Shown one piece after another: positions 7,284 to 38,180 of a stretch of 64,000 nucleotides of DNA. Source of the stretch: Polyangia bacterium (GTDB lineage: Bacteria > Myxococcota_A > Polyangia > Fen-1088); contig JBJMQQ010000013.1 in assembly GCA_045802645.1 (NCBI GenBank), positions 1,588 through 65,587 of the forward strand, written 5' to 3'. Made by a program: the position numbers and the translations under genes. Positions within the stretch are counted from its first letter, which is position 1. Every line of letters begins with the position of its first letter. The notes beneath the pieces were generated by a model that ran no database searches, was not told where the DNA came from, and saw nothing but the letters and a program-made list of their open reading frames with translations.

Positions 7284-7285
7284 TC

Positions 7286-12280: not shown

Positions 12281-12723
12281 CGGCTGCTGGCGTCGCGCGC
12301 CGGGTGTTCGTCGTGTGCGAGGACGGCACCGAGTACATCGATCGATTTCGCCGGTTCCTGGGCCAGTCGTTCGACTTCGTGGCTGCGCCCGATTTCGCGG
12401 CCGCGCGCGGTCTGGTCGCTGAAACCGACGGCCTGCTGCTGGACCTGGATTTCCGCCGGACGCCGCCCGAAAGGTTGGTCGACGAGCAAGGCCAGTCCGC
12501 CGCCGGGGTCGACGCGGGCACGCGCGCACGATTGGCGGAGACTCAGGGCATCCTGATCCTCCGCCGTCTGCGCGCCGAGGGGATCGTCACGCCAGCCGTT
12601 CTCTTCGCCGACCTCGACGACGACGCGCAGGCGGAGTTCCTGCGCCGAACGCTGGCCCCCCTGACGCTGGCGCCGAGCCGCCTGGGCCTGCGCGAGCTGG
12701 CCGCTCTGTTGCGGGGCTACTGA
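12277..12723 (+). CDS. Stand-alone atypical receiver-like domain protein, paralogous to the N-domain of the adjacent sigma-54 activator
   Basis: ATGA overlap with the upstream gene. VFVVCEDGTEY...LLLDLDFRRTPPERL...QGILILRRLRAEG aligns with the EBP N-domain VLVVDDRDQT...LVVLDLHFALPEERL...QGLLILERLRGLY, including the same insertion after the putative phospho-Asp. Confidence 0.65.
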   Translation: MTAAGVARRVFVVCEDGTEYIDRFRRFLGQSFDFVAAPDFAAARGLVAETDGLLLDLDFRRTPPERLVDEQGQSAAGVDAGTRARLAETQGILILRRLRAEGIVTPAVLFADLDDDAQAEFLRRTLAPLTLAPSRLGLRELAALLRGY

Positions 12724-18132: not shown

Positions 18133-18161
18133 TTGACATTCGCCGCGCGGCGCGGCAATTC
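18133..18161 (+). promoter_or_regulatory. Putative sigma-70-type promoter for the metE riboswitch leader (TTGACA-N17-CAATTC)
   Basis: Perfect TTGACA at 18133-18138 and a weak -10 CAATTC 17 nt downstream, immediately 5' of the riboswitch P1 region. The architecture is shared with the nrdAB riboswitch promoter. Confidence 0.35.
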
Positions 18162-18365
18162 TGGCGTCCTGCTGGTGTCCCGGGGTTGATCCCTCGGGAC
18201 TGAAAAGGGAACCCGGTGAGAATCCGGGGCTGCCCCGCAGCGGTAAACGAGAACGACGTCCGCCACATGCACTGGTCCACCCGGACCGGGAAGCGGCGGG
18301 CCAAGGGACCCGGCGAAAGCCGGCAAGCTCGCGAGCCCGAAGACCTGCCAGCGGCTGACGTAGGG
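18162..18365 (+). ncRNA. Cobalamin (B12) riboswitch in metE 5' leader
   Basis: Contains tgAAAAGGGAAcccGGTGAGAATCCggGGCTGCCCCGCAGCGGTAAAcg (conserved cobalamin-riboswitch core) and the B12-box GCGAGCCCGAAGACCTGCCAGC, ~150 nt upstream of metE. Confidence 0.8.
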
Positions 18366-18507
18366 ACAAATCCTACGGCTGCAGATCCGTCGCCTCGCGG
18401 GAGGCCGGTGGGTCGATGGCCGGCGGTCTCCGTTCGTGCCTTTCGGCTCTCCGTGTCACCCGCGTGGCGGCTTCACGCCCGGGGGGGCGAGACCCAAGGA
18501 GAGATCG

Positions 18508-20868
18508 ATGCTGTCGAATCAAGGCGTACTGGCAACGTGTTTGGGCCATCCACGAATCGGTGCCCAGCGTGAGCTGAAGGCAACCCTGGAGGCGTACTGG
18601 GCGGGGCGCGCGTCGCGCGAGGAGCTGGAGGAGACGGGCCGGGAGCTGCGGCGGCGACACTGGCTCGCCATGCGCGCCGCGGGCATGGACCACGTCCCGT
18701 GCAACGACTTCTCTTTCTACGATCACGTTCTGGATGCGGCGATCGCGACCGGGATCGTCCCGCCCCGCTATCGCGTCGTCGCCGATCCCCTGGCGCGGAT
18801 GTTCGCGATGGCGCGTGGCCTGCAGGATCGCGCGACGGGCGCGGACCTGCCGGCGCTGGAGATGACCAAGTGGTTCGACACCAACTACCACTACCTGGTC
18901 CCGGAGCTGGAGCCGGACCAGGTGTTCCGGCTGGACCCGACGAAGATCCTCGGTGAGGTGAGGGAGGCGCGCGCGCTGGGGATCCCGGTGCGCCCCGTGC
19001 TGCTGGGGCCGGTGACGTTGCTGCGGCTGTCGAAGACGGCCGCAGGGGCGCCGGCGTCGACGCTGGTCGGCGTGCTGGATCGGCTGGTTGGCGTCTACGA
19101 AGAGCTGCTGGCGACGCTGGCCGGCGAACAGGTTGCATGGGTGCAGCTGGACGAACCGGTGCTGGCTTTGGATCTCGACAGCGCGACGCGCGAGGCTTAC
19201 CGGCGCGCGCTGGGGCGCCTCTCGTTCCTGAAGAAGCGGCCCCGGTTGATGCTGACGACCTACTTCGAGGGGATCGGCGACAATCTGGCTCTGGCCGTGC
19301 AGTCCGGCTGCGAGGCGATCCACGTCGACCTCGTGCGCGCGCCCGAGCAGCTGGACGCAGTCCTGGCCGCGCTGCCACCGGACACCGTGCTGTCCGCGGG
19401 CGTCGTCGACGGGCGCAACGTCTGGCGGGCCGACCTGGACGCCGCCCACGCGCGCGTGCGCCGCGCCGTGCGCGCGCTGGGGCCAGAGCGGGTCTGGGTG
19501 GCGCCGTCGTGTTCGCTGCTGCACGTGCCCGTCGACATCACGGGTGAAGAGGCGCTGGACCCACAGCTGAAGTCGTGGCTGGCGTTCGCGCGGCAGAAGC
19601 TGGAAGAGCTCCGCGTGCTGGCCGACGCCGCCGGAGACGACGCGCCGGCGTCTGCGGCGTTCGCCATCTCGCGCGCGGTGCGCGAGGGGCGCCGCGCGTC
19701 CGAGCAGGTGCGCAACCCCGCGGTCCGCGCGCGGGTGCAGGGAGTCGACGACCGGATGCTGCACCGGCGCAGTCCCTATTCGCAGCGCGCCGTCCGGCAA
19801 CGCGCGCGGTTCGCGCTGCCGCTGCTCCCGACGACGACGATCGGCTCGTTCCCGCAGACGGGGGACGTCCGGGCGGCGCGCGCGGCCTGGCGGGCGCGTC
19901 GTCTGATGGACGCCGACTACGTGCGCTTCTTGAAAGAGGAGACAGCCCGCTGCATCGCCAAGCAAGAGGAGCTGGGCCTGGACGTGCTGGTGCACGGCGA
20001 GTTCGAGCGCACCGACATGGTCGAGTACTTCGGCGAGCAGTTGCAGGGGTTCGCGTTCACCCACAATGGCTGGGTGCAGAGTTACGGGTCGCGCTGCGTG
20101 AAGCCGCCCGTGCTCTACGGCGACGTCGCGCGGCCGCGTCCGATGACGGTTGACTGGAGCCAGTACGCGCAGTCGCTGACGTCGCGCCCGGTGAAGGGGA
20201 TGCTGACGGGGCCCGTCACGATCCTGCAGTGGTCATTCGTTCGCGACGACGAGCCGCGCGCAGCGGTGTGCGCCCAGGTGGCGCTTGCGCTGCGTGACGA
20301 GGTCGCCGATCTGGAAGCGGCGGGCATTGGCATGATCCAGGTCGACGAGCCGGCGATCCGCGAGGGGCTGCCGCTGCGGCGCCGCAAGTGGGGCGACTAC
20401 CTGCGCTGGGCCGTCGACGGATTCCGGCTGGCCACCGCCGGCGTTCGCGACGACACGCAGATCCATACGCACATGTGCTACGCGGAATTTGGCGACATCC
20501 TTGCGGCCGTCGCCGAGATGGACGCGGACGTGCTGTCGATCGAGACGTCGCGCTCGCGCATGGAGCTGCTGGGTGACTTTGGCCGCTTCGCTTACCCGAA
20601 CGAGGTGGGGCCCGGCGTCTACGACATCCACTCGCCGCGCGTGCCCTCGGTCGAGGACATGCTGCAGCTGCTGCGGCGCGCAGCGAGGGTGCTACCGCGC
20701 GAGCGGTTGTGGGTGAACCCCGACTGCGGCCTCAAGACCCGCGGCTGGCCGGAGGTCGAGGCGGCGCTCCGCAACCTGGTGGAAGCAGCGCGCCGCCTTC
20801 GAGAGGAGCAGGGACGCGACGATCAGAAGCTGGCGTCCAGCACGACGTCGCCCGTGACGCCGACCTGA
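18508..20868 (+). CDS. metE: Cobalamin-independent methionine synthase (5-methyltetrahydropteroyltriglutamate-homocysteine S-methyltransferase)
   Basis: ATG 18508 with AAGGAGAG RBS. Translation aligns to MetE over two domains (HRIGAQRELK...; C-terminal NPDCGLKTRGWPE). Confidence 0.92.
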   Translation: MLSNQGVLATCLGHPRIGAQRELKATLEAYWAGRASREELEETGRELRRRHWLAMRAAGMDHVPCNDFSFYDHVLDAAIATGIVPPRYRVVADPLARMFAMARGLQDRATGADLPALEMTKWFDTNYHYLVPELEPDQVFRLDPTKILGEVREARALGIPVRPVLLGPVTLLRLSKTAAGAPASTLVGVLDRLVGVYEELLATLAGEQVAWVQLDEPVLALDLDSATREAYRRALGRLSFLKKRPRLMLTTYFEGIGDNLALAVQSGCEAIHVDLVRAPEQLDAVLAALPPDTVLSAGVVDGRNVWRADLDAAHARVRRAVRALGPERVWVAPSCSLLHVPVDITGEEALDPQLKSWLAFARQKLEELRVLADAAGDDAPASAAFAISRAVREGRRASEQVRNPAVRARVQGVDDRMLHRRSPYSQRAVRQRARFALPLLPTTTIGSFPQTGDVRAARAAWRARRLMDADYVRFLKEETARCIAKQEELGLDVLVHGEFERTDMVEYFGEQLQGFAFTHNGWVQSYGSRCVKPPVLYGDVARPRPMTVDWSQYAQSLTSRPVKGMLTGPVTILQWSFVRDDEPRAAVCAQVALALRDEVADLEAAGIGMIQVDEPAIREGLPLRRRKWGDYLRWAVDGFRLATAGVRDDTQIHTHMCYAEFGDILAAVAEMDADVLSIETSRSRMELLGDFGRFAYPNEVGPGVYDIHSPRVPSVEDMLQLLRRAARVLPRERLWVNPDCGLKTRGWPEVEAALRNLVEAARRLREEQGRDDQKLASSTTSPVTPT

Positions 20869-21848
20869 TAGGCCGAGACCCGCCGCTCGAAGAAGTTCGT
20901 GACCTCCTGGACGTCCTGCAGATCCATGAAGGGCAGCGGGTTGGCGGTCACGCCGTAGCGGCGGGGCATCCCCAGCGTCGCCAGGCGCCGGTCGGCGCAA
21001 TGTTCCAGATAGCGGCGGACGTCACCGACCGACAGGCCGGCGACGCCGCCGCCCAGCAGGTCCTCCGCGAACTGGGTCTCGCACTCGACGGCCTCGTCCA
21101 TCATGGCCGCCACCGCCCGCCCCAGCTCGGCGTCGAACAGCGCCGGCTCCTCGCGGCGGATGGTGGCGATCACCTCGAACGCGAACGCCATGTGCGCGCT
21201 CTCGTCGCGGAACACCCAGTTGGTGCCCGCGGCGAGGCCGTGCAAGAGGCCGCGTGACCGCAGGAAGTACACGTAGGCGAACGCGCCGAAGAAGAACAGC
21301 CCCTCCACGCAGGCCGCGAACGCGATCACGTTCAGCAGGAACTGTCGCCGATCCGCCTGGGTATCCAGGCGGGTGAGCGACTGGATCGAGTCCAGCCAGC
21401 GCATGCAGAACGCCGCCTTTTGCCGGATGGACGGGATGTTGTCGACGGCCGCGAAGGCGCGCGCCCGCTGTTCGGGGTCCGGCACGTAGGTGTCGAGCAG
21501 CGTCAGATAGAACTGCACGTGCAGCGCCTCCTCGTAGAGCTGCCGCGACAGGTACATCCGCGCCTCGGGCGCGTTGATGTGGCGATACAGGTTCAGCACC
21601 AGGTTGTTCGCCACGATGGAGTCGCCGGTCGCGAAGAACGCCACAAGCCGCTGGACCAGGTGGCGCTCGGCGTCGGTCATCTTGACGCCGAGGTCGCGCA
21701 CGTCCGTCGAGAAGTCGACCTCCTCGACCGTCCAGGTGTTCTTGATGGCGCCCCGGTACATGTCGAAGAACGCGGGGTAGGCCATGGGCCGCAACGTCAG
21801 GCAGAGCCCCGGATCCAGCAGCCGGGCAGGGCGCGCGCTGGCGTTCAT
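20823..21848 (-). CDS. nrdB: Ribonucleoside-diphosphate reductase beta subunit (class Ia)
   Basis: Last 341 codons of the artefactual ORF 20823..24110 give an R2-like ferritin fold (AFFATGDSIV..., EEALHVQFY, FRDESAHMAFAF). Start overlaps the nrdA stop (ATGA). Confidence 0.9.
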   Translation of the reverse strand: MNASARPARLLDPGLCLTLRPMAYPAFFDMYRGAIKNTWTVEEVDFSTDVRDLGVKMTDAERHLVQRLVAFFATGDSIVANNLVLNLYRHINAPEARMYLSRQLYEEALHVQFYLTLLDTYVPDPEQRARAFAAVDNIPSIRQKAAFCMRWLDSIQSLTRLDTQADRRQFLLNVIAFAACVEGLFFFGAFAYVYFLRSRGLLHGLAAGTNWVFRDESAHMAFAFEVIATIRREEPALFDAELGRAVAAMMDEAVECETQFAEDLLGGGVAGLSVGDVRRYLEHCADRRLATLGMPRRYGVTANPLPFMDLQDVQEVTNFFERRVSAYQVGVTGDVVLDASF

Positions 21849-24229
21849 TGGCAAGCCTCGCAAGACTCGGGGTTCTCCAGCGAGCAGGCGACGGCGTCGG
21901 CGTCCGCATTCACGTTCGCGACCGGCGCGTCCACCGTCGCCTTCGCGATCTTCGTGGCGGGACGCGAGCGCAGGTAGTACGTCGTCTTCAGCCCTCTTTG
22001 CCAGGCGTAGAAGTACATCGACGAGAGCTGGCCGATGTTCGGGCTCTCGATGAACAGGTTCAGCGACTGGCTCTGGTCGATGAACGCGCCACGGTCGGCG
22101 GCCATGTCGATGAGCGACCGCATCGGGAGCTCCCAGGCGGTCCGGTAGATCGCCCGCAGCGACTCCGGGAGCTCGGAGAGCCCCTGGACCGACCCCTCGG
22201 CCAGCTTCAGCCGGTTCCGCGTCGCGTCCGTCCAGAGGCCCAGCGCCTTCAGCTCCGCGACGAGGTACCGGTTGACCTGCAGGAAGTCGCCGGACAGCGT
22301 CTCGCGCTTGAACAGGTTCGAGACCTGCGGCTCGATGCACTCGCCGCAGCCCGCGATCGAGGCGATGGTGGCCGTCGGCGCGATGGCGATCAGCAACGAG
22401 TTGCGCAGGCCGACCTCCTGAATGCGAGTCCGCAGCGCCTCCCAGCGGGTCGGAGCGTCCGGGGTGACGCCCCAGGCCTGGAACTGCAGCTCGCCCCGGG
22501 CGGCGCGCGTCTCGGCGAACGACGGGTGCGCCCCTTTTTCCGCCGCCAGGTCGGCCGACGTGGTCAGCGCGTGAAAGTAGATCTCCTCGGCGATGCGGCG
22601 CGACAGCGCGCGCGCCTCGGGCGCGTCGAACGGCAGCCGGAGCTGGAAGAAGAGGTCCTGCAAGTCCATCACGCCCAGCCCGACAGGCCGCCAGCGCAGG
22701 TTCGAGGCCTGCGTACTGGGGATCGGATAGAAGTTGAGGTCGATCACCCGATCGAGCTGGCGCACGGCGATCTGCACCGTCCTGGCCAACTTGTCGAAGT
22801 CGAACACCACCGCGCCGTCGTCGGTGCGGCGGCTGTGGCGGGCCAGGTTGATCGACCCGAGGTTGCAGACGGCGGTCTCGTCCCCGGACGTTACCTCCAG
22901 GATCTCCGTGCACAGGTTCGACAGGTGCACGGTGCGCCCCGGCAGCGCCGTCTGGTTGCACGCGCGGTTGGACTTGTCCTTGAACGTCATCCAGCCGTTC
23001 CCGGTCTGCGCCAGCGTGCGCATCATCCGCGCGTAGAGGTCGCGCGCCTTCACGGTCCGGGCCGCCAGCCCCGCCGTCTCGGCGGATGCATAGGCGCGCT
23101 CGAACTCTTCGCCGTAAAGGTCGGGCAGCTCGGGCACCACCTTGGGATCGAACAGGCTCCAGTCCCCGTCGGACTCGACCCGCCGCATGAACAGGTCCGG
23201 CACCCAGTTCGCCAGGTTCAGGTTGTGCGTGCGGCTGGCGTCGTCGCCCGTGTTCTCGCGAAGGGACAGGAACTCCTCGATGTCGGCGTGCCAGGTCTCG
23301 AGATACACGCAGCAGGCGCCCTTGCGCTTGCCCCCCTGGTTCACGGCGGCGACCGAGGCGTCCAGCGTCTTCAGCCACGGGACGATGCCGTTCGAGTGGC
23401 CGTTCGTGCTCTCGATCAGCGACCCGCGCGAACGAACGCGGTGATACGCGAGCCCAATGCCGCCCGAGAACTTCGACAGCAGCGCCGCGTCCGTGTAGCG
23501 CTGGTAGATGCCGGCCAGGTGATCCGGCGGTGAGTCGAGCAGGAAGCAGCTGGACAGCTGCTCGTGCCGGGTGCCGGCGTTGAACATCGTCGGTGAGCTG
23601 GGCAGGTACTCCAGCGTCGAGAACAGCGCATAGAGGTCCAGCGCGCCCGCGACGGTGTCGGACAGCGCGCAGGCGATTCGCAGGAAGAAGTGCTGCGGCG
23701 TCTCGATCACGAGCCGCGTCTGCGGGTGCCGCAGCAGGTAGCGGTCGTAGAGCGTGCGTAGCCCGAAGTACTCGAACTCGTTGCTGCGCGCCGCGACGAC
23801 CGCGTCGTTCAGCTTGCGCGCGTGGGCCGTGACGAATGCGCTCAGTCGCTCGTTGGCCAGCCCGAGCCGGTGCGCGGTCACCACCGACTGAGAGAAGGCG
23901 TGAATCTCCTGACCGCGGACTTCCTTGTCGACGGTGGTCGCCAGCAGCCGCGCGGCCAGCTTCGCGTACTGCGGCTCCTCGACGATCAAGGCCGCGGCGG
24001 TCTGGATCGACAACTGATCCAGCTCGCGCGTGGTCGCCCCGTCGTAAAGGCCGCTGATCGTCTTGGTCGCGACGCGCATGGCGTCGACGTCGGGCAACCC
24101 GGCGCAGCACCGGTTCACCGCGCGGACGATCTTGTTGACGTCGACGGGTTCCCAGGCGCCGTTGCGCTTGCGGACCCGCATGGTCGTGTGCGGCACCATC
24201 GCCGCCTCGGTCTTCGTGGCTGTCAGCAT
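21845..24229 (-). CDS. nrdA: Ribonucleoside-diphosphate reductase alpha subunit (class Ia, with ATP-cone)
   Basis: ATP-cone MRVRKRNGAWEPVDVNKIVRAVN. Catalytic core (...CNLGSINL...). ATG 24229 is preceded by AGGAGGggacgc. Confidence 0.9.
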   Translation of the reverse strand: MLTATKTEAAMVPHTTMRVRKRNGAWEPVDVNKIVRAVNRCCAGLPDVDAMRVATKTISGLYDGATTRELDQLSIQTAAALIVEEPQYAKLAARLLATTVDKEVRGQEIHAFSQSVVTAHRLGLANERLSAFVTAHARKLNDAVVAARSNEFEYFGLRTLYDRYLLRHPQTRLVIETPQHFFLRIACALSDTVAGALDLYALFSTLEYLPSSPTMFNAGTRHEQLSSCFLLDSPPDHLAGIYQRYTDAALLSKFSGGIGLAYHRVRSRGSLIESTNGHSNGIVPWLKTLDASVAAVNQGGKRKGACCVYLETWHADIEEFLSLRENTGDDASRTHNLNLANWVPDLFMRRVESDGDWSLFDPKVVPELPDLYGEEFERAYASAETAGLAARTVKARDLYARMMRTLAQTGNGWMTFKDKSNRACNQTALPGRTVHLSNLCTEILEVTSGDETAVCNLGSINLARHSRRTDDGAVVFDFDKLARTVQIAVRQLDRVIDLNFYPIPSTQASNLRWRPVGLGVMDLQDLFFQLRLPFDAPEARALSRRIAEEIYFHALTTSADLAAEKGAHPSFAETRAARGELQFQAWGVTPDAPTRWEALRTRIQEVGLRNSLLIAIAPTATIASIAGCGECIEPQVSNLFKRETLSGDFLQVNRYLVAELKALGLWTDATRNRLKLAEGSVQGLSELPESLRAIYRTAWELPMRSLIDMAADRGAFIDQSQSLNLFIESPNIGQLSSMYFYAWQRGLKTTYYLRSRPATKIAKATVDAPVANVNADADAVACSLENPESCEACQ

Positions 24230-24287
24230 GCGTCCCCTCCTGCCTCCCGCGAGGCTCAGGTCATTGCCGGCGCGCATTTCGCGCGCG

Positions 24288-24499
24288 GGTGCTGGCAGGT
24301 CTTCGGGCTCGCGAGCGTGTCGGCCGTTTGGCCGCGTGCCTACCGTCCCCGGCTTCCCAACCCCGAAAGGGGATCAGTGCCGGCTCGGCTCGTCGCCAAG
24401 CTGGGGACTTCGTTCTCGCCTACCGCTGCGGGGCAGCCCCGGATTCCGACCGGGTTCCCTTTTGGCCCGCGAGACCATCCCCGCGGGTCACCAGCACAG
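24288..24499 (-). ncRNA. Cobalamin (B12) riboswitch in nrdAB 5' leader (minus strand)
   Basis: The reverse complement contains CAAAAGGGAAcccGGTcgGAATCCggGGCTGCCCCGCAGCGGTAgg and a B12-box GCTCGCGAGCCCGAAGACCTGCCAGC identical to the metE copy. A GCCTCGCGGGAGGC hairpin abuts the AGGAGG RBS. Confidence 0.75.
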
Positions 24500-24505
24500 G
24501 ACGCA

Positions 24506-24534
24506 ACGTAACGCACTGTATGGTCATGCGTCAA
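24506..24534 (-). promoter_or_regulatory. Putative promoter for nrdAB riboswitch leader (TTGACG-N17-TTACGT on minus strand)
   Basis: It has the same spacing and the same downstream GCGTCCTG(C/T)TGGTG start as the metE leader promoter. It lies in the 75-nt gap after the upstream gene stop. Confidence 0.3.
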
Positions 24535-24579
24535 CTGAATATCGTGGGTCGATCGCTGTCGCACCACTGCATACAGTGG

Positions 24580-26796
24580 TCAGCGCCGCCGCCGCGAGAC
24601 CAGGAGCGCCATCAGCAGGGCTGTCGCTGTGAGCCACGACCACCGGTTGGGGAGCCTGCTTGCGGTGCACCCGCAGCCGGATGCCGGCGGCGTGTGCGGG
24701 ACGACGGAGACGCCGACGATCGGGTCGGCGCCGTCAACGGCGGCATCGGCGGTCCCCATGGGCGGCGGGGTGGCGTCCGTGTGACCAGCGCCTCCGTCCG
24801 GTTGCTTGATCGCGCCGGCGTCCGCGGTGGCGATCGGAGGCGGGCTGGCGTCCGTGCGCGGCGGCGGCGCAGCACCCGCGTCGGCCGGTACCACCATCCC
24901 CGGATTGCAGCTGCCGGCCGGGACGGTGACGTCGGCGGCGGGCGTGACGGCGACGTAAGAGATCGAGTCGCCGGCGTAGTTCTCGGCGCCCGTTGCGCAG
25001 AGGCCGGTCACGGGGACGGTCGCCGCGTTCGTCGCGACGTGGACGGTCACGGTGCCGTCGGCCGCGATCGTCGCCGACGCGCCGGACGTATCGAACGGCG
25101 CGCGCGCCGCCACGCGCGCGCCCAGCACGTCCATCGTCGGGCTGACGATGGGCACCGTCATCAGCGCCGCGTATTTGTCGAACGCGGCGTCCAGCAGATC
25201 CGACAGCAGGCTGTGACCGCCGCCGTTGTCGCGCGTATCGGCCTGGTGGAACATCCAGGGGTCGTTCTCGCCGCGCAGCAGGTAGCCGAGCAGCGTGGTG
25301 CTGACCTTGTCGATCAGCGCGGGGTAGTCCAGGTTGGTGCTGTTGCGCGTGTTGTACTCGGCGACCCATTGGGCCGGCGTCGAGACGCTGTAGTAGAGGT
25401 CCGTCGGGCGCCGCGGGATCAGCAGGAGTCCTGCCTGCAGCGTGCTGGGGATCCCCTGGTTGAAGCTGGGATTGTTGTAGCCGGGCTGGGATGTGTCGCT
25501 GACCAGGTAGCGAATGCCTGTGGCGGCCGCCGCGGCGAGCACGTTCGCGTTGGCCAGACCGCTGACGTCCGGCGTGACGGCCGCGGCGACGCTGTACGGC
25601 GTGAGCCCCAGTTGCGCGACGCGATCATCGTTGCGCGTGAACTCGGACAGCGCGGTCGCGTAGTCCATCGAGGTCATGTCCAGGTGATCCCAGGTGTGGT
25701 TGATCCACGCGAACCCGGCGCCGATCGCCTGCGCCTTGGCTGTCAGGGGGTCTCCGTCGACGGCTTTCGCGGTGTTCACGCAGAAGGCGGCCCGGAAGTC
25801 GGCGGTCACCGGCTTTTGACGGCGGGCCGTCTGCCAGGCGAAGAAGGACTGCAGATCGGCGTCCGTGATCCGCACCGCCGCAGAGCCGTCGTACATGCGG
25901 CTGGCCAGGAACAGGTCGTCGATCTGCACGCCTGCGTAGGTGTGACGCTCGCCGATGAAGACGCCGTGCGATGCCCAGCGAATCACGCCGAACATCAGCT
26001 GCATCGTGTGGGCCGCGCCGTCCGCCTGCGAAAACGTGAGCGCCAGCGTTTCGCGTCCGTCGGCATTTCGCCGCGTCGCCGCCAGTGCGTGCCCCGCGTC
26101 GTCGGTCAAGAGCGGGGTCGTCGACGCATCCGCCGGGGCCGCGGTGTAGACGACGGCGTTCGCGATCGCGATCGGGTTCGTGCAGTTCGCCCCGACGAAA
26201 ACCTTCGCCCCGTCGGACGTGCAGTGCGCAGCGACGGTGCCGGCGGCGGTCGTGGTGGTCGCAACGAAGCCGTAGCCGGCGTCCGGCAGCGTGTAGAGCG
26301 CGGCGCGACGCACGCCGAAGGTCGCTTCGTAGGCGGCCAGCGCTTGCCACTCGGCGTCGGTGAATGCGCTGGTCCCGCTCCCCGTCAGCAGCGCGCCGCG
26401 ATCGAGAAGAATCGCGTTGTAGCGGCCGTGCGTGCCGGCCGCCAGTTGATCGGCCGTGAGTCGTTGTCCGTGTGTCGCGTCGTGGACGTCGAACGGCGTG
26501 CCCAGCCGTTTCAACGCGGCCTGTACCGCATTTGCCGCGGGATCCGTGCCGTCGGCCGTGATCACCAGGACGCGTGCGTCCACGGTCGCACCGGCGATCC
26601 GGGTTGCGCCGGTGGCGGGAGCGTCCGGCACGGGGCTCTTCGGCGCCGGCTGCGCAACGGCCGCGGCGGAGATTGACACCGCGGAGATCTCTGGCGCCGC
26701 GGTCGGCTCGCCGGGCACGGGCGTGCGCTCTGGCGTACAAGCCCAGCCGGTCGACAAAGCCAGCCCGGCCGCCAGCGCTCTAAGAGTGAATCGCAT
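24580..26796 (-). CDS. Secreted lipoprotein with MYXO-CTERM anchor; possible polysaccharide deacetylase-like (CE4/Agd3-like) domain
   Basis: Lipobox ALSTGWAC after MRFTLRALAAGLA. Central NHTWDHLDM resembles CE4 motif H-S/T-x-x-H. C-terminal GCGCTASRLPNRWSWLTATALLMALLVSRRRR is a canonical MYXO-CTERM. The domain call is tentative. Confidence 0.7.
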   Translation of the reverse strand: MRFTLRALAAGLALSTGWACTPERTPVPGEPTAAPEISAVSISAAAVAQPAPKSPVPDAPATGATRIAGATVDARVLVITADGTDPAANAVQAALKRLGTPFDVHDATHGQRLTADQLAAGTHGRYNAILLDRGALLTGSGTSAFTDAEWQALAAYEATFGVRRAALYTLPDAGYGFVATTTTAAGTVAAHCTSDGAKVFVGANCTNPIAIANAVVYTAAPADASTTPLLTDDAGHALAATRRNADGRETLALTFSQADGAAHTMQLMFGVIRWASHGVFIGERHTYAGVQIDDLFLASRMYDGSAAVRITDADLQSFFAWQTARRQKPVTADFRAAFCVNTAKAVDGDPLTAKAQAIGAGFAWINHTWDHLDMTSMDYATALSEFTRNDDRVAQLGLTPYSVAAAVTPDVSGLANANVLAAAAATGIRYLVSDTSQPGYNNPSFNQGIPSTLQAGLLLIPRRPTDLYYSVSTPAQWVAEYNTRNSTNLDYPALIDKVSTTLLGYLLRGENDPWMFHQADTRDNGGGHSLLSDLLDAAFDKYAALMTVPIVSPTMDVLGARVAARAPFDTSGASATIAADGTVTVHVATNAATVPVTGLCATGAENYAGDSISYVAVTPAADVTVPAGSCNPGMVVPADAGAAPPPRTDASPPPIATADAGAIKQPDGGAGHTDATPPPMGTADAAVDGADPIVGVSVVPHTPPASGCGCTASRLPNRWSWLTATALLMALLVSRRRR

Positions 26797-27111
26797 ATCT
26801 GCCTCCCACGGCCCCGTCGATCTGCAAGCACCGCTTGTGCCCAATGCAACGTCATCCGCAAGTGACCGTAACCGCGGCGTCCTTGCGCGGCGCTCGTTGC
26901 CGGCCCGTCACGCTGCGGTAACCAAACTTCACCGCGCTTCGCAGCGGCGAAACGGCCGCATCCCGCGACGGCTCATCGCCGGCTGCCATCGACGATGTGG
27001 GATTCTCGGGCGACTCGCGACCCGTCCGTCGGGGTTGTACGTACGTGTGGGAAAGCAGGCGTCGCGCGATTTTCGCCGGCCGCGTGAGCCGTTTCGCCGG
27101 GCTGGTGGCTC

Positions 27112-32722: not shown

Positions 32723-33778
32723 CTAGGGCGCGGCGCGGGCCGCGGTGGCCAGGCTGGTTTGCACCGCCGATTCCAGCGCCCCCAGGTGATCGATCTGCGC
32801 GCTGACGGCGCGGAACCAATCGGTGGGGTCGACGCCGAAGCCGCCGCGGCGGTGGGCAATGGCGATCTGCTCCATCCGTTGCACGGCGGTGGCCACGTCC
32901 GAGGTCAGCTGCTCGTTCAGAAGGTCACGCGCGGGCGCCGGGGCCGCGTCCGTGAACAGATGCAAATAGCTGTCGCGCGCCGCGATGAGGCCCAGCAACG
33001 CCTGGTACTGGCCCTCGACGTAGCGGTCTCGCTCGAACGCGCTCACGAGCTGCGCGCGCTCGATCCCCGTCTTCTCTTTCGCGTTCAGCAGCGCGATCCA
33101 GGCCAGCGCCGTCGGCCGCTGCGCCGGGTCGGTGACCATCACCAGCAGCGCGTCGATGACCTGCAAGAACTCGCGGTTGAGCTGGCTGTAGGCTTCGATC
33201 AGCTCGGTCGGCCGCATCTTCAGCTTCTCGACGGCGGCGCGCGACGCGATGACGTCGGCCAGACGTTCGTCCGCGGCCGCCAGACGGCTCGCGATCCCGG
33301 GTGGCAGCCGCGCGCCGAACCGTTCGCGAAAAGCCGCGAAGTCGGCGCGGCATCGCTCGGTCGTGCGCCACTGCCGTGCCAGCTCCTCGCGGAACAGCCG
33401 CCCGCCCGACGCCGCGTACAGTGAAGAGACACCGCGCTCGCGCTGCGTCTCGTGGATGAGCGCGCTCAGGACACCGGTGGCTTCGTGGAACCGGGCCGGC
33501 TCCGTCGGTTCGATCAGCCGGCCCGGTCGGGGCGAGGTGCGCTGGAGGAACGCGATCTGTCTTTCGACTGCCGCGCCCTTCAGCACACCCGCCTCGACCG
33601 CCGCCTGCAACGCCGCCTCGAACGTCTCCCCCTCGAACTCGTGCATCTGCGTCCGGTCGGCGGCGTGGACGACCAGATTGATCGTGCGGACGTCGCCCTC
33701 GTACAACGCCTTCCCCCAGCCGTCCCCCGCCAGGCAGAACTGGACGATCCGTGTTGCTTCGTCGACCGTCAGTGCCAT
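32723..33778 (-). CDS. Stand-alone NIT (nitrate/nitrite-sensing) domain protein without recognisable output domain
   Basis: LIHETQRERGVSSLYAASGGRLFREELARQWRTTE matches the NIT-domain signature (HELQKERGxSAxYL). There is no ANTAR, HTH or kinase module. The ~80-aa N-terminal region is unknown. It is the last gene of the nirBD-narK operon side. Confidence 0.75.
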   Translation of the reverse strand: MALTVDEATRIVQFCLAGDGWGKALYEGDVRTINLVVHAADRTQMHEFEGETFEAALQAAVEAGVLKGAAVERQIAFLQRTSPRPGRLIEPTEPARFHEATGVLSALIHETQRERGVSSLYAASGGRLFREELARQWRTTERCRADFAAFRERFGARLPPGIASRLAAADERLADVIASRAAVEKLKMRPTELIEAYSQLNREFLQVIDALLVMVTDPAQRPTALAWIALLNAKEKTGIERAQLVSAFERDRYVEGQYQALLGLIAARDSYLHLFTDAAPAPARDLLNEQLTSDVATAVQRMEQIAIAHRRGGFGVDPTDWFRAVSAQIDHLGALESAVQTSLATAARAAP

Positions 33779-33841
33779 CCCGTCTAGCTTGTACCCGATG
33801 CGGTTAAGAGGTGGTTTCGGACCGGTACAATGTAAGTAACC

Positions 33842-35233
33842 TTAAATCCCGACCTGCGCCTCCGCCAGGTTGCGGACAGGCGCGGCGGCGGAGGCCGTCT
33901 TGCGGGCGTAGAACCACCACGTCAGCGCCACGCACGTGACGTAGAAGCCCAGGAACCCGCGCAGCGCCAGCTCGACGCCGCCCGTCGCGTGGATCGACGC
34001 GCCGAACGAGCGCGGGATCAGGTAGCCGCCGCAGGCGCCGATGGCGGACGTGAAGCCCAGGACGGCCGCGCTCTCGCGGCGGGCGACGGCCAGCGCCTGA
34101 CGCTCGGCCTCGGGGCCCTGGCCCTCGACGGCGCGCAGCTTCTCGCGACGGAAGATCACCGGGATCATGCGGAATGTCGAGCCGTTCCCGACGCCGGTCG
34201 TCACGAACAGCAGCAGGAACACCCCCAGGAATCCGCCGAACGAATGCTGGTGAACGAAGTGCGTCACCCCCAGCGTCGCCAGCCCCATGAGGACGAAGTT
34301 CCACATGGTCACGCGGGTGCCGCCGATCCGGTCGGCCAGCTTGCCGCCCAGCGGCCGCGCAATGGACCCGACCAGCGCGCCAAGGAAGGCGAGGTTCATC
34401 GTCACCTGCGGAAACTGCGTCTTCAGCAGCAGCGGAAACGCCGCCGAGTACCCGATGAACGAGCCGAACGTGCCGATGTAAAGCCACGACATCACCCAGG
34501 TGTGCTTGCTGCGCGTGACGGTGATCTGGTCGCGGAACGTCGAGCGCGCCGAGGCGAGATTGTTCATGAAGCGCGCCGCACCCAGCGCCGCGATCGCGAT
34601 GAGCGGCATCCAGAAGAGGCCCGCGTTCTCGAGGTGCAGCTTCGTCGTGGCGGCCAGGATGGGCACGGTCATGACCAGCGGGATCAATAGCTGGACCGTG
34701 CTGACGCCGATGTTGCCGCCCGCCGCGTTGAGCCCCAGCGCGAACCCCTTGGCGCGGTCCGGGTAGAAGAACGAGATGTTGGCCATGCTGGAGGCGAAGT
34801 TTCCGCCGCCCAGTCCGGCCGTCGCCGCCGCCATCGCCATCAACCAGAACGGGGTCGACGGATCACGAACCAGCAGCACCAGCGCCGTCGTCGGGATGAA
34901 CAGCAGCAGCGCGCTGACGATCGTCCAGTTTCGGCCGCCGAAGCGCGGGACCGCGAACGTGTACGGGAACCGCATCAACGACCCGATGAGCCCGGGCAAC
35001 GCCACCAGCGAGAAGAGCTGCTCCGTCGTGTAGTGGAATCCGACCTTGTTGAGGCGGGGCGCCACGACGCTCCAGATCAGCCACACCGAGAACCCGATGT
35101 TCTCGGCCAGGATCGACCAGATCAGGTTGCGGCGCGCCACGCGCCGGCCCGTCTGGCGCCAGAACGTCTCGTCTTCGGGGTTCCACTCGCTGATCCAGTG
35201 CGGACCCGTGTGAGCTTCTTTCGCGGTCTTCAT
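33842..35233 (-). CDS. narK: Nitrate/nitrite transporter, MFS NNP family
   Basis: 12-TM MFS protein with NNP-like GLNAAGGNIGVS signature. ATGA coupling to nirD. Confidence 0.88.
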   Translation of the reverse strand: MKTAKEAHTGPHWISEWNPEDETFWRQTGRRVARRNLIWSILAENIGFSVWLIWSVVAPRLNKVGFHYTTEQLFSLVALPGLIGSLMRFPYTFAVPRFGGRNWTIVSALLLFIPTTALVLLVRDPSTPFWLMAMAAATAGLGGGNFASSMANISFFYPDRAKGFALGLNAAGGNIGVSTVQLLIPLVMTVPILAATTKLHLENAGLFWMPLIAIAALGAARFMNNLASARSTFRDQITVTRSKHTWVMSWLYIGTFGSFIGYSAAFPLLLKTQFPQVTMNLAFLGALVGSIARPLGGKLADRIGGTRVTMWNFVLMGLATLGVTHFVHQHSFGGFLGVFLLLFVTTGVGNGSTFRMIPVIFRREKLRAVEGQGPEAERQALAVARRESAAVLGFTSAIGACGGYLIPRSFGASIHATGGVELALRGFLGFYVTCVALTWWFYARKTASAAAPVRNLAEAQVGI

Positions 35234-35625
35234 TGTCGGACTCCGTTTCGCGGCGCGATGCCGATTGCGACCCGGCCGTCGCGCACACGGACCGGGTAGA
35301 CGGGGAGCTTCACCAAGGGGTCGTCGAAGCAGGCGCCCGTCTCCAGGTCGAACGTCTGCTTGTAGATGGGGGAGGCGATCTTGGGGCGGCCGCCGCGGTC
35401 GCCCACGATGCCGCGGGCGATCACGAAGGCCTGACTGAACGGGTCGTAGTTCGACAGCGCGTAAACGCGGTCGCCCTCGTCGGGGCGAACCAGCGCGATC
35501 TGGCGGTCGCCGACCAGCGCAGCGACCCCGCTGGCGGGCGGGATGTCGTCCAGCGCGCAGGTGTCGATCCAGATGACGTCGGGCTCGGGCGCGGCCAGCG
35601 CTTCGACGTGGATGGCGACGCTCAT
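35230..35625 (-). CDS. nirD: Nitrite reductase [NAD(P)H] small subunit (Rieske-like)
   Basis: 131-aa C-terminal part of the shadow ORF 35230..37347 (MSVAIHVEALAAPEPDVIWIDTCALDDIPP...). Flanked by ATGA overlaps with nirB and narK. Confidence 0.85.
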   Translation of the reverse strand: MSVAIHVEALAAPEPDVIWIDTCALDDIPPASGVAALVGDRQIALVRPDEGDRVYALSNYDPFSQAFVIARGIVGDRGGRPKIASPIYKQTFDLETGACFDDPLVKLPVYPVRVRDGRVAIGIAPRNGVRQ

Positions 35626-38180
35626 GCCGCCTCCTTCTTGGCCGCGTGGGCTGGATCGGCGAGGCGGTCCAGCAGGTCGCGCTTTTCGTCGGGGTGGGCC
35701 GGGCGCGGTTGCCCGCGCTCGCGGATGAAGACCAGGCTGGGATCGGCGGCGGGGCTGTTCACGAACCCGCGGAACTGGGCCAGCTTCTGCGGGTCCTCCA
35801 GCGCGTCCTTCCACTCGCACTTGTACGTGCCGACCACGTGAGCCATCTCGGCTTCCAGCTCGGCGCCGATGCCCAGCTTGTCGTCGACGACCACCTCGCG
35901 CAGATACGCGATGCCCCCCTCGAGGTTGTTGAGCCAGCCGGCGGTCCGCTGCAGCCGGTCGGCCGTGCGGATGTAGAACATCAGGAAGCGGTCGATGTAC
36001 TGGACCAGCGTCGCCTCGTCGAGGTCGGTCGCCAGGAGCTGCGCGTGCTGCGGCTTCATGCCGCCGTTGCCGCAGACGTAGAGGTTCCACCCCTTCTCCG
36101 TCGCGATGATCCCGAAGTCCTTCCCCTGCGCCTCGGCGCACTCGCGCGCGCACCCGGACACGGCCGACTTCAGCTTGTGGGGGCTGCGGAGCCCCTTGTA
36201 GCGGTTCTCGATCCGCACGGCCAGGCCGACGGAGTCCTGCACGCCGTAGCGGCACCAGGTGTCGCCGACGCAGGACTTCACGGTCCGCAGCGACTTGCCG
36301 TAGGCGTGGCCGGACTCGAACCCGGCCGCGACCAGGTCGCGCCAGATCAGCGGAAGCTGGTCGACGCGCGCCCCCAGCATGTCGATGCGCTGGGCGCCCG
36401 TGATCTTGGTGTAGAGGCCGTACTTCTTGGCGATCTCGCCGATCGTGACCAGCTGGTCGGGCGTGATCTCGCCGGCCGCGACGCGCGGGATCACCGAGTA
36501 GGTTCCGTCGCGCTGGATGTTGGCCAAAAATCGATCGTTGGTGTCCTGCAGCGGGCGGTGCTTGCGTTCCAGCACCGGCTCGTTCCAGGCGGACGCCAGG
36601 ATGGACGCCACCGCCGGCTTGCAGATCTCGCAGCCGCGCCCGCGCCCGTGCCGCGCGATCAGCTCGTCGAACGTCTTCAGCTTGTGGACGCGCACGAGCT
36701 GATAAAGGTCCTGGCGCGAGCAGGGGAAGTGCTCGCAGAGCGCGTTGTTGACGGCGACGCCGGCCTTCTTCAGCTCGATCTTCAGGAGGTCGTTCAGCAA
36801 CGGCACGCAGGAGCCGCAGCTGGTGCCGGCGCGCGTGCAGCTCTTGAGGGCGCCGACGGCCTGCGCGCCCCCCGCGATCGCCTGGCAGATGGCCCCCTTG
36901 TCGACGTTGTTGCAGCTGCAGATGGTGGCCGACGCGGGCAGGCTGTCGACGCCCATTCCGGCGGGCGCCTCGCCGGGCGGCAGCAGCAGCGCCTCGACCT
37001 TCACGGGCAGCGCCGCCTTGCTCTGGACCATCGCGACCAGCTGCGCGTACTGCGACGCGTCCCCGACCAGGATGCCGCCCAGCAGGCGCTGGCGGTCGGC
37101 CGAGACGACCAGCTGCTTGTAGACGCCCGCCACGTTGTCGATGAGGCGCAGCGTGTGGGCGCCGCCCTCCAGGCCGAACGCGTCGCCGAAGCTGGCGACG
37201 TCCACGCCCAGCAGCTTCAGCTTGGTGCTCATGTCGAAGTGACCGAGGTGCCGGCCCGCCGTCTCGGCCAGCTCGTCGGCGGCGACCTGCGCCATCGTGT
37301 AGCCGGGCGCGACCAGGCCGTAGCAGCGGCCGTCCCAGGCCGCGCACTCGCCGATGGCCAGGATGTCGGGGTCGGAGGTGCGGCAGCGGGCGTCGATCTC
37401 GATGCCGCCGCGCTGCCCCACCGCCAGGCCGGCGGCGCGCGCCAGCTCGTCGCGCGGGCGCACGCCGGCGGAAAAGACGATCAGCGACGCGTCCAGCGCG
37501 CCACCGTCGGAGAGCTGCAACCCCATCGCGCGTCCCGTCTCGTCCGTCAGCACGCGCTTGGCGGAGACGCCGGTGTGGACGGCCACGCCCAGCGTCTCGA
37601 TGTGGCGGCGCAGGATGGCGCCGCCGGCGTCGTCGATCTGCAGCGCCATCAGCCGGGGCGCGATCTCGATGACGTGGGTCTCGAGGCCCAGGTTACGCAG
37701 CGCGTTCGCCGCTTCCAGCCCCAGCAAGCCGCCCCCGATGACCACGCCCACGCCGGCCGAAGCGACCGATGCGGCCGCGGCGATGGCCTCCAGGTCTTCG
37801 ATCGTGCGGTAGACGAAGCAGCCGGGGGCGTCGCGCCCCTCGACGGGGGGGACGAACGGCGACGACCCGGTGGCCAGCACCAGCTTGTCGTAAGGGAGCG
37901 TCACGCCGGCCGCGGTGCGGACCACCTTGGCGGCGCGATCGATCGAGGCGACCGCGTCACTCAGGACCAGGCGGATGCCCGCCGTTTCGTAAGCTTCGCG
38001 TGAGGTCAGCGCCAGCGGCTCGGCGCCGCCGTCGAAGAACTTCGTGAGGTTGACGCGATCGTAGGCGGGCCGGGGCTCTTCGCCGACCACCGTGATGTCG
38101 AAGTGGCCGGCGTCGCGGCACAGCTCGACCAGCCGGTGTCCGACCATTCCGTTTCCGACGATGACCAGTTGGGGTGCCAT
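35622..38180 (-). CDS. nirB: Nitrite reductase [NAD(P)H] large subunit (FAD/NAD, BFD-like 2Fe-2S, sirohaem-4Fe4S domains)
   Basis: MAPQLVIVGNGMVGHRL... Rossmann fold, CSCNNVDKGAICQAI BFD-like motif, sulfite/nitrite reductase haem-binding region CVGDTWCRYG...SGCARECAEA. Confidence 0.92.
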   Translation of the reverse strand: MAPQLVIVGNGMVGHRLVELCRDAGHFDITVVGEEPRPAYDRVNLTKFFDGGAEPLALTSREAYETAGIRLVLSDAVASIDRAAKVVRTAAGVTLPYDKLVLATGSSPFVPPVEGRDAPGCFVYRTIEDLEAIAAAASVASAGVGVVIGGGLLGLEAANALRNLGLETHVIEIAPRLMALQIDDAGGAILRRHIETLGVAVHTGVSAKRVLTDETGRAMGLQLSDGGALDASLIVFSAGVRPRDELARAAGLAVGQRGGIEIDARCRTSDPDILAIGECAAWDGRCYGLVAPGYTMAQVAADELAETAGRHLGHFDMSTKLKLLGVDVASFGDAFGLEGGAHTLRLIDNVAGVYKQLVVSADRQRLLGGILVGDASQYAQLVAMVQSKAALPVKVEALLLPPGEAPAGMGVDSLPASATICSCNNVDKGAICQAIAGGAQAVGALKSCTRAGTSCGSCVPLLNDLLKIELKKAGVAVNNALCEHFPCSRQDLYQLVRVHKLKTFDELIARHGRGRGCEICKPAVASILASAWNEPVLERKHRPLQDTNDRFLANIQRDGTYSVIPRVAAGEITPDQLVTIGEIAKKYGLYTKITGAQRIDMLGARVDQLPLIWRDLVAAGFESGHAYGKSLRTVKSCVGDTWCRYGVQDSVGLAVRIENRYKGLRSPHKLKSAVSGCARECAEAQGKDFGIIATEKGWNLYVCGNGGMKPQHAQLLATDLDEATLVQYIDRFLMFYIRTADRLQRTAGWLNNLEGGIAYLREVVVDDKLGIGAELEAEMAHVVGTYKCEWKDALEDPQKLAQFRGFVNSPAADPSLVFIRERGQPRPAHPDEKRDLLDRLADPAHAAKKEAA

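What the first reader, a model, noticed from the sequence alone, without database searches (positions are those of the whole stretch)
24288..24534. Second cobalamin riboswitch on the minus strand controlling class Ia ribonucleotide reductase nrdAB
The reverse complement carries the same cobalamin core and a B12-box immediately upstream of nrdA (ATP-cone class Ia). A GCCUCGCGGGAGGC hairpin overlaps the AGGAGG RBS, consistent with translational OFF control. B12 repression of B12-independent RNR predicts a B12-dependent class II nrdJ elsewhere in the genome.
Basis: partly seen in the sequence, partly recalled or inferred. Interest (0 to 1): 0.55.

Follow-up and report, generated by a model that had tools for sequence, protein, structure and literature searches.

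The report
B12 riboswitch upstream of nrdAB
This is a genuine vitamin-B12-sensing RNA switch in front of the genes for the B12-independent DNA-precursor enzyme (class Ia ribonucleotide reductase) of an uncultured myxobacterium, an arrangement already known from Streptomyces, so the finding is correct but ordinary.

Summary
Rfam finds a full-length cobalamin riboswitch (RF00174, 86.2 bits against a threshold of 31.5) at 24277-24510 on the minus strand. A sister copy lies at 18156-18366 (+), ahead of metE. The gene downstream is nrdA (ATP-cone, all-alpha and barrel domains; 21845-24229). It is translationally coupled to nrdB (20823-21848), which keeps the Asp ligand and the radical Tyr of class Ia.

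It abuts the AGGAGG Shine-Dalgarno sequence (24236-24241) rather than overlapping it. It is not an ad hoc sequestering hairpin. It is the conserved P13/L13 kissing-loop hairpin of cobalamin riboswitches: it is present in 44 of 56 related leaders, its stem covaries, and its loop is complementary to the invariant L5 loop CCCCGC.

A tandem NrdR-box pair sits on the putative promoter, so control is probably dual (NrdR plus B12).

The same riboswitch-nrdAB arrangement is widespread in Polyangia, Nannocystis, Archangium, Lysobacterales and some Acidobacteriota. It was shown experimentally in Streptomyces in 2006.

No nrdJ lies in the 64 kb window. Whether the genome has one could not be tested. Verdict: a new member of a known kind, of low interest.

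The parts
24564..24579 (-). NrdR-box-like palindrome 1, CCACTGTATGCAGTGG
   Evidence: C4, A8, T9 and G13 are present. It lies 16 bp from box 2. This pair is the only tandem pair in the window that passes the criteria taken from PMC13584703.
24532..24547 (-). NrdR-box-like palindrome 2, CCACGATATTCAGTTG; it overlaps the putative -35
   Evidence: C4, A6, A8, T9 and G13 are present. Equivalent pairs lie upstream of the riboswitch in most related loci.
24505..24534 (-). Putative sigma-70-type promoter, TTGACG-N18-TACGTT; predicted transcription start near 24498, just before P1
   Evidence: Read from the sequence. TTGAC(G/A/C) and TACGTTGC are conserved in L081 and L083-L086 while the flanks vary. 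The consensus scan did not call it. This is an inference.
24277..24510 (-). Cobalamin riboswitch aptamer (RF00174), with the peripheral extension
   Evidence: 86.2 bits, full model. Orthologous hits of 73-114 bits in nine relatives.
24428..24433 (-). L5 loop CCCCGC (stem-loop GCUGCCCCGCAGC at 24425-24437), the kissing-loop partner
   Evidence: Invariant in all riboswitch-bearing loci examined. Coordinates.
24294..24309 (-). B12 box AGCCCGAAGACCUGCC
24270..24286 (-). Hairpin in the P1-P13 linker (P12-like), GCGCGC-GAAAU-GCGCGC
   Evidence: Relatives have a hairpin at the same place with a different stem sequence and a GGAGACA loop.
24257..24262 (-). Conserved GACCUG; its CCU can pair with the AGG of the Shine-Dalgarno sequence (anti-SD)
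   Evidence: Conserved in relatives. The pairing appears in the predicted folds. This is an inference.
24242..24255 (-). P13/L13 hairpin GCCUC-GCGG-GAGGC; the loop plus closing G (GCGGG) is complementary to CCCGC of L5
   Evidence: Predicted stability -8.0 kcal/mol. The same type of hairpin occurs in 44 of 56 leaders against 1% of shuffles. The stem covaries.
24236..24241 (-). Shine-Dalgarno sequence AGGAGG, 6 nt before the ATG
   Evidence: The same layout is found in L081 and L083-L086.
21845..24229 (-). nrdA, class I ribonucleotide reductase large subunit with an ATP-cone (794 aa)
   Evidence: Pfam. TIGR02506 NrdE_NrdA scores 704.7 bits, above its cut-off; NrdJ_Z scores below its cut-off.
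20823..21848 (-). nrdB, small subunit (341 aa); its ATG overlaps the nrdA TGA (ATGA)
   Evidence: The Asp ligand (FFATGDS) and the ExxHxxxY motif with the radical Tyr are retained.
18156..18366 (+). Sister cobalamin riboswitch ahead of metE (metE at 18508-20868); identical L5 and an identical first L13-type hairpin (18392-18405)

Best explanation
The RNA is a class-I (AdoCbl-type) cobalamin riboswitch in the 5' leader of the nrdA-nrdB operon of an uncultured Polyangia myxobacterium. It switches the B12-independent class Ia ribonucleotide reductase off when coenzyme B12 is available.

Proposed course of events:
1. Transcription starts at a promoter that carries a tandem NrdR operator (inferred).
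2. The aptamer (24289-24497) folds and binds the cobalamin (inferred from family membership).
3. The bound ligand stabilises the kissing-loop contact between L5 (CCCCGC) and the loop of the P13 hairpin (GCGGG, 24242-24255).
4. That hairpin ends one base before the Shine-Dalgarno AGGAGG, and it is flanked by a CCU that can pair with the AGG of the SD. Docking it buries the ribosome-binding region (-26 to -7) and blocks 30S loading on nrdA.
5. nrdB follows by translational coupling (ATGA overlap).
6. Loss of translation may then lower transcript levels through Rho or mRNA decay.

Shown here: the RNA family, the gene identities, the conservation and covariation of the hairpin, and the L5/L13 complementarity. 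Inferred: ligand binding, kissing-loop formation, ribosome occlusion, and the existence of a B12-dependent NrdJ that takes over.
For: - RF00174 hit of 86.2 bits over the full model.
- The orthologous leaders of nine relatives all carry the riboswitch, at 73-114 bits. About 45 of 80 species-level loci were positive by motif.
- The closest relative (L081, NrdA 94% identical) has an identical P13-SD-ATG segment, while the linker hairpin differs by compensated changes.
- A hairpin with a stem of at least 5 bp and a C-GNGG-G loop lies 36-45 nt after P1 in 44 of 56 leaders. The rate is 1% in shuffled sequence and 0 of 56 in coding controls.
- The stem is 92% paired, with 35 double-change cells, and 0 of 500 shuffles reach this.
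- L5 is invariant and complementary to the loop.
- In the compact leaders (window, L081, L083-L086, L008, L010) the Shine-Dalgarno sequence follows the hairpin within 0-5 nt, even where the stem sequence is different, for example CGCCC/GGGCG.
- In the published mechanism for cobalamin riboswitches, the L5-L13 kissing loop is cobalamin-dependent and the RBS lies at L13 (PMC5028336).
- There is no terminator-like hairpin with a U-tract on the minus strand.
- Precedent: the S. coelicolor nrdABS B12 riboswitch, with NrdJ as the primary reductase (Borovok 2006, as cited in PMC4991794, and PMC12528414).
Against: - There are no experimental data for this sequence.
- In thermodynamic folds of the isolated platform, the first four bases of AGGAGG are mostly unpaired (unpaired probability 0.81-0.99). 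Occlusion therefore has to come from tertiary docking, which cannot be computed here.
- The whole-leader MFE does not reproduce the aptamer and is only weakly better than shuffles (z = -2.1).
- The linker between P1 and P13 is 33 nt. In env8HyCbl, long single-stranded linkers weakened regulation. Here 17 of the 33 nt form a hairpin, which may compensate.
- In Streptomyces the reported effect was on transcript level.
- The hairpin set used for covariation was picked by a hairpin finder, which biases the percentage paired.
- nrdJ was not found, because the genome is not available.
Confidence: 0.78

Rival explanations
1. The riboswitch is functional, but its main output is at transcript level: Rho-dependent premature termination or accelerated mRNA decay. 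Direct ribosome occlusion would then be secondary or absent.
For: The only experimentally studied nrdAB riboswitch (Streptomyces) was reported to control transcription (title of Borovok 2006, cited). [quoted passage not shown] Many relatives have 100-400 nt between the L13-type hairpin and the start codon, where simple occlusion by that hairpin cannot work.
Against: In this window and its closest relatives the hairpin sits directly against the Shine-Dalgarno sequence, and that juxtaposition is kept when the stem sequence changes. There is no intrinsic terminator. The two outputs are not mutually exclusive.
Confidence: 0.15
2. Classical transcription attenuation: the GCCUCGCGGGAGGC hairpin acts as an intrinsic terminator.
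For: It is a stable GC-rich hairpin (-8.0 kcal/mol) downstream of the aptamer.
Against: It is followed by AGGAGGGGACGCAUG, with no U-tract. The terminator scan finds nothing on the minus strand. The hairpin loop is conserved as the complement of L5, which is the signature of a kissing-loop hairpin.
Confidence: 0.03
3. The element is a decaying or constitutive relic that no longer regulates nrdAB. NrdR would then be the only regulator.
For: Its score (86 bits) is lower than that of the metE copy (114 bits). It carries a window-specific insertion of about 17 nt in the peripheral region, and its outer P1 pairs are non-canonical. Orthologous nrdA genes in Myxococcaceae and Stenotrophomonas do without a riboswitch.
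Against: All core motifs, P1, L5, the B12 box and the L13 hairpin are intact and nearly identical in relatives whose flanks have diverged. The insertion itself forms a hairpin at a position where peripheral elements vary. 86 bits is far above the 31.5-bit threshold.
Confidence: 0.04

Closest known systems
Streptomyces coelicolor nrdABS B12 riboswitch (Borovok et al. 2006, J Bacteriol 188:2512; known to me through PMC4991794 and PMC12528414; the paper itself was not readable here)
   Same: A cobalamin riboswitch sits in the 5' leader of a class Ia nrdAB operon. The logic is the same: the B12-independent reductase is shut down when AdoCbl is available for NrdJ. NrdR boxes at the same promoter give dual control.
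   Different: The phylum differs (Myxococcota/Polyangia against Actinomycetota). There is no nrdS gene. The reported output there is transcriptional, whereas here the platform abuts the Shine-Dalgarno sequence. Nothing here is experimentally tested, and NrdJ is not verified.
Translational cobalamin riboswitches that use the L5-L13 kissing loop (env8HyCbl, E. coli btuB; Johnson 2012; Polaski 2016, PMC5028336)
   Same: A P13 hairpin downstream of P1 has a loop complementary to L5 and carries or abuts the RBS. An SD-like GGGAGG lies within L13 and its 3' arm.
   Different: This aptamer is the large RF00174 type with a peripheral extension, not the AdoCbl-variant class. The P1-P13 linker is 33 nt and contains a hairpin, against 7 nt single-stranded in env8. 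The best-placed SD (AGGAGG) lies just 3' of the hairpin rather than in the loop.
The metE cobalamin riboswitch in the same window (18156-18366, +)
   Same: Same aptamer core, identical L5 and an identical first L13-type hairpin. It also controls a B12-independent isozyme.
   Different: The metE leader is the long form: a second G-loop hairpin (18476-18489) about 70 nt further on abuts the SD. The nrdA leader has only one hairpin.

Membership tests
Cobalamin riboswitch (Rfam RF00174, clan CL00101) | Covariance-model score at or above the gathering threshold over the full model | tested here: met
   86.2 bits against 31.5, model 1-189 of 189, E = 7e-20.
Cobalamin riboswitch (Rfam RF00174, clan CL00101) | B12 box and closing P1 helix | tested here: met
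   AGCCCGAAGACCUGCC at 24294-24309. GUGCUGG pairs with CCAGCAC over 7 bp.
Cobalamin riboswitch (Rfam RF00174, clan CL00101) | L5-L13 kissing loop: a downstream hairpin whose loop is complementary to L5 | tested here: met
   Tested at sequence level. L5 CCCCGC is invariant. The hairpin loop GCGG plus the closing G is complementary to it. The hairpin is present in 44 of 56 leaders against 1% of shuffles, and its stem covaries. Formation of the tertiary contact itself was not testable.
Cobalamin riboswitch (Rfam RF00174, clan CL00101) | Binds a cobalamin and changes expression in response | not testable with these tools
   Needs in-line probing or ITC, and reporter assays.
Class Ia ribonucleotide reductase (NrdAB) | Large subunit with an N-terminal ATP-cone, the all-alpha domain and the ten-stranded barrel; matches the class I model, not the class II model | tested here: met
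   Pfam PF03477, PF00317 and PF02867. TIGR02506 scores 704.7 against a cut-off of 341; TIGR02504 NrdJ_Z scores 345, below its cut-off of 400.
Class Ia ribonucleotide reductase (NrdAB) | Small subunit with the Asp first metal ligand and the radical tyrosine (ExxHxxxY), as opposed to Glu/Phe in class Ic | tested here: met
   FFATGDS and EEALHVQFY align with Tyr of yeast R2. The nearest structure, 6y2n, has E and F at these positions.
Class Ia ribonucleotide reductase (NrdAB) | No NrdI or NrdH partners (these would indicate class Ib) | tested here: met
   nrdB is followed directly by the convergent metE, and the gene upstream of the leader is a deacetylase. TIGR04170 and TIGR04171 score far below their cut-offs.
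B12-riboswitch-controlled nrdAB with an NrdJ backup (Streptomyces type) | A B12-dependent class II reductase (nrdJ) in the same genome | not testable with these tools
   No nrdJ lies in the 64 kb window. A bona fide NrdJ query hits only NrdA.
NrdR operator | Two 16-bp partially palindromic boxes separated by 15-16 bp, with C4 and G13 in both | tested here: met
   Boxes at 24564-24579 and 24532-24547 with a 16-bp linker. This is the only such pair in the window. Criteria from PMC13584703.
NrdR operator | A6 and T11 conserved in each box; an NrdR protein encoded in the genome and binding the site | tested here: inconclusive
   Box 1 has G6/C11 and box 2 has A6/C11. The nrdR gene and its binding were not testable.

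The most novel reading that the evidence does not exclude
In this lineage the L13-type hairpin occurs in two contexts.
- Compact leaders (nrdA here) have one hairpin that abuts the Shine-Dalgarno sequence.
- Long leaders have a first L13-type hairpin next to the aptamer and a second G-loop hairpin (CGCCC-GNGG-GGGCG) 70-400 nt downstream. It abuts the SD in metE here and in nrdA of L087. In nrdA of Chondromyces and Minicystis further leader sequence separates it from the start codon. A CCCGCG stretch resembling L5 often lies between the two hairpins.

If the two hairpins, or the L5-like stretch, compete for the single L5, this would be an undescribed expression platform with two kissing-loop receptors. 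The compact nrdA leader of the window would then be its deletion derivative.
Probability: 0.12. Interest if true: 0.5.

Novelty: new member of a known kind. Interest (0 to 1): 0.15.

Why it matters
The finding adds a myxobacterial (Polyangia) example to a known regulatory logic: B12-independent isozymes (NrdAB, MetE) are repressed by B12 riboswitches when the cofactor is available. It also shows that the nrdAB-riboswitch pairing is broadly conserved outside Actinomycetota.

Practical value:
- The annotation is correct.
- It makes a testable prediction that the organism uses or imports cobalamin and encodes NrdJ and MetH.
- It provides a compact natural leader (NrdR operator, aptamer, L13-SD) that could be used to study kissing-loop-mediated translational control in high-GC bacteria.

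It does not open a new question.

Tried and rejected
- **Exact-sequence look-ups.** NrdA (794 aa and the 810-aa upstream-ATG version) is not on record. The source genome could not be retrieved. The upstream in-frame ATG at 24277 lies inside the riboswitch and is rejected as a start.
- **Whole-leader MFE fold.** It gives a non-native long-range fold with z of only -2.1. It was not used as evidence.
- **Lower helix CGGCA:UGCUG.** This helix pairs the start codon in the platform MFE. It is not conserved in L081, so it is rejected as a feature.
- **Intrinsic terminator.** None on the minus strand.
- **Promoter scan.** It found nothing. The promoter proposed here rests on conservation only.
- **nrdJ.** phmmer with NrdA and with a genuine NrdJ (Oceanithermus plasmid) against all window ORFs hits only NrdA. 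Literature searches for NrdJ in myxobacteria found nothing. The supplements of Shelton et al. hold no Sorangium, Chondromyces or Minicystis rows. I ran no further search on a foreign NrdJ, because the top 120 hits would be its own relatives rather than Polyangia.
- **Primary papers.** Borovok 2006 and Vitreschak 2003 are not held.
- **MYXO-CTERM tail of the upstream gene.** It scores 16.5 bits, below the cut-off of 20. This is suggestive only.

Full report
**What is there**

A scan of the whole window against Rfam gives two matches, both to the cobalamin riboswitch RF00174.
- One lies at 18156-18366 (+), 113.7 bits.
- The other lies at 24277-24510 (-), 86.2 bits, E = 7e-20, covering the full model 1-189.

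Read on the minus strand, it has these parts:
- P1 helix: GUGCUGG (24491-24497) paired with CCAGCAC (24289-24295).
- The conserved GGGAACCCGGU...AAUCCGGGGCUG core.
- L5 stem-loop GCUGCCCCGCAGC (24425-24437).
- B12 box AGCCCGAAGACCUGCC (24294-24309).

A window-specific insertion of about 17 nt (about 24385-24402) forms an extra small hairpin in the variable periphery. It is absent from the closest relative.

**The regulated genes**

The ATG at 24229 opens a 794-aa protein with ATP-cone, Ribonuc_red_lgN and Ribonuc_red_lgC domains. It passes the NCBIfam class I model TIGR02506 (704.7 bits against a cut-off of 341). It stays below the cut-off of the class II model NrdJ_Z.

Its TGA overlaps the ATG of a 341-aa Ribonuc_red_sm protein (21848-20823, ATGA). 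That protein keeps the Asp metal ligand (FFATGDS) and the ExxHxxxY motif with the radical tyrosine. The nearest solved structure, 6y2n, has Glu and Phe at these positions. No nrdI or nrdH is adjacent. This is a class Ia nrdAB operon.

An in-frame ATG at 24277 lies inside the riboswitch and is not the start.

**Organism and conservation**

The window has about 70% G+C. The nearest NrdA proteins are from Polyangia MAGs, at up to 94% identity. The nearest cultured relatives are Chondromyces crocatus (83%) and Sorangium (82%). The window's own proteins are not on record.

The 94% relative (L081) is fully syntenic: an Agd3-like deacetylase, then the riboswitch with nrdA and nrdB, then a convergent metE with its own riboswitch.

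Rfam finds RF00174 ahead of nrdA in all nine relatives that I scanned. These are Polyangia MAGs, Chondromyces, Minicystis and Nannocystis.

A motif search finds the core or the B12 box ahead of nrdA in about 45 of 80 species-level loci. They include Archangium, Haliangiales/Kofleriaceae, many Lysobacterales (Arenimonas, Rhodanobacter, Dyella, Lysobacter) and some Acidobacteriota.

Orthologous nrdA genes of Myxococcaceae, Stenotrophomonas and some Acidobacteriota lack the riboswitch. The arrangement is therefore widespread but lineage-dependent.

**The expression platform**

After P1 come, in order:
1. A short hairpin, GCGCGC-GAAAU-GCGCGC (24270-24286).
2. The conserved GACCUG (24257-24262).
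3. The hairpin GCCUC-GCGG-GAGGC (24242-24255).
4. AGGAGG (24236-24241), then six bases, then the ATG.

It is not a private feature of this leader:
- A hairpin with at least 5 bp and a C-GNGG-G loop lies 36-45 nt after P1 in 44 of 56 riboswitch-bearing leaders. The rate is 1% in shuffled sequence and 0 of 56 in coding controls.
- Its stem covaries: GCCUC/GAGGC, ACCUC/GAGGU, UCUCC/GGAGA, CUUCC/GGAAG, CGCCC/GGGCG. It is 92% paired with 35 double-change cells, and 0 of 500 shuffles reach this. One caveat is that the hairpins were picked by a hairpin finder.
- The loop is always G-rich and complementary to L5, and L5 is invariant (CCCCGC) in every locus.

This is the P13/L13 hairpin of cobalamin riboswitches. 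Its kissing-loop contact with L5 is cobalamin-dependent, and it carries the ribosome-binding site in the studied cases (PMC5028336).

In the compact leaders (window, L081, L083-L086, L008, L010), the Shine-Dalgarno sequence follows the hairpin within 0-5 nt, even where the stem is entirely different. That argues for selection on the juxtaposition.

The CCU of GACCUG can pair with the AGG of the SD around the hairpin. However, plain thermodynamic folding leaves most of AGGAGG unpaired, so occlusion would have to come from ligand-stabilised docking. No U-tract follows the hairpin, and no terminator is called on this strand.

**Mechanism**

The most likely mechanism is that B12 binding stabilises the L5-L13 kissing loop, which buries the region from -26 to -7 and blocks 30S loading on nrdA. 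nrdB follows through translational coupling. Secondary effects through Rho or mRNA decay are possible. In Streptomyces the reported effect was at transcript level.

**Upstream control**

Immediately after the stop codon of the upstream gene lie two 16-bp partial palindromes:
- CCACTGTATGCAGTGG (24564-24579)
- CCACGATATTCAGTTG (24532-24547)

They are separated by 16 bp, and the second overlaps a TTGACG-N18-TACGTT promoter-like element. They meet the published NrdR-box layout: C4 and G13 in both boxes, the central AT, and a 15-16 bp linker (PMC13584703). They are the only such pair in the window. Equivalent pairs, often with all six key positions, lie upstream of the riboswitch in most related loci. 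nrdAB is thus probably under dual control by NrdR and B12, as in S. coelicolor.

**What is known**

B12-riboswitch control of class Ia nrdAB is established. The S. coelicolor nrdABS operon is regulated by AdoCbl through a riboswitch, with the B12-dependent NrdJ as the primary reductase. Other RNR operons, such as that of B. halodurans, carry B12 riboswitches. The window's element is a new member of that known kind.

**nrdJ**

No second RNR-like ORF exists in the 64 kb. NrdA as a query finds only itself. A genuine NrdJ query hits only NrdA, at 78.6 bits.

Presence of nrdJ elsewhere in the genome could not be tested. The prediction remains logical but open.

**Verdict**

The feature is ordinary and of low interest.

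Noticed in passing
window 24532-24579 (-): A tandem NrdR-box-like pair (CCACTGTATGCAGTGG, 16-bp linker, CCACGATATTCAGTTG) overlaps the putative -35 of the nrdA leader. It is the only such pair in the window. Similar pairs precede the riboswitch in most related loci. This suggests dual NrdR plus B12 control.
   Followed up: partly
window 18367-18510 (+): The metE leader is a long form. The same GCCUCGCGGGAGGC hairpin (18392-18405) follows the aptamer. A second G-loop hairpin, CGCCCGGGGGGGCG (18476-18489), then abuts the SD AAGGAGAG (18496-18503) and the ATG at 18508. A CUCUCC and a CCCGCG stretch lie in between. How the two hairpins share one L5 is unexplained.
   Followed up: partly
L001-L004, L018, L082, L087 (nrdA leaders of Polyangiaceae MAGs, Minicystis, Nannocystis, Chondromyces): In these relatives, 100-400 nt separate the first L13-type hairpin from the nrdA start. 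The spacer holds a conserved second hairpin, GUCGCCCGCGGGGGCGA(A)GGUCGG, often a CCCCCGCG stretch resembling L5, and pyrimidine-rich anti-SD-like runs. In L087 the second hairpin abuts the SD.
   Followed up: partly
window 20823-20868: The convergent metE (+) and nrdB (-) coding regions overlap by 46 nt at their 3' ends, with no room for terminators. The same overlap is found in L081 and L084 but not in L083. Both genes are B12-independent isozymes, each behind its own B12 riboswitch.
   Followed up: partly
L082 (Chondromyces crocatus CP012159.1, 3277944-3300376): nrdA, nrdB, a 4HBT thioesterase gene and metE are co-directional behind a single cobalamin riboswitch, and there is no separate metE riboswitch. 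This is a possible single B12-repressed operon of two B12-independent enzymes.
   Followed up: no
window about 24385-24402 (-): A window-specific insertion of about 17 nt (AGCUUGGCGACGAGCCG) forms a small extra hairpin in the peripheral part of the aptamer. It is absent from L081, L085 and L086 and variable in L083 and L084.
   Followed up: partly
window 24580-26844 (-): The upstream gene encodes an Agd3-like polysaccharide deacetylase (CBM87 plus CE domains). Its C-terminal tail, GCGC...hydrophobic...RRRR, resembles a MYXO-CTERM sorting signal. TIGR03901 scores 16.5 bits, below its cut-off of 20.
   Followed up: partly
window 6834-12716: This stretch of about 6 kb has 71-77% G+C. Long overlapping ORFs lie on both strands, and none of the three that were scanned has a Pfam match. 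The coding assignment is unclear.
   Followed up: no
window 32723-40432: A nitrate and nitrite assimilation cluster: a NIT sensor domain protein, an MFS transporter, a NirB-type nitrite reductase and a molybdopterin oxidoreductase. The NIT and MFS genes are also found near nrdA in L081. This is ordinary.
   Followed up: no
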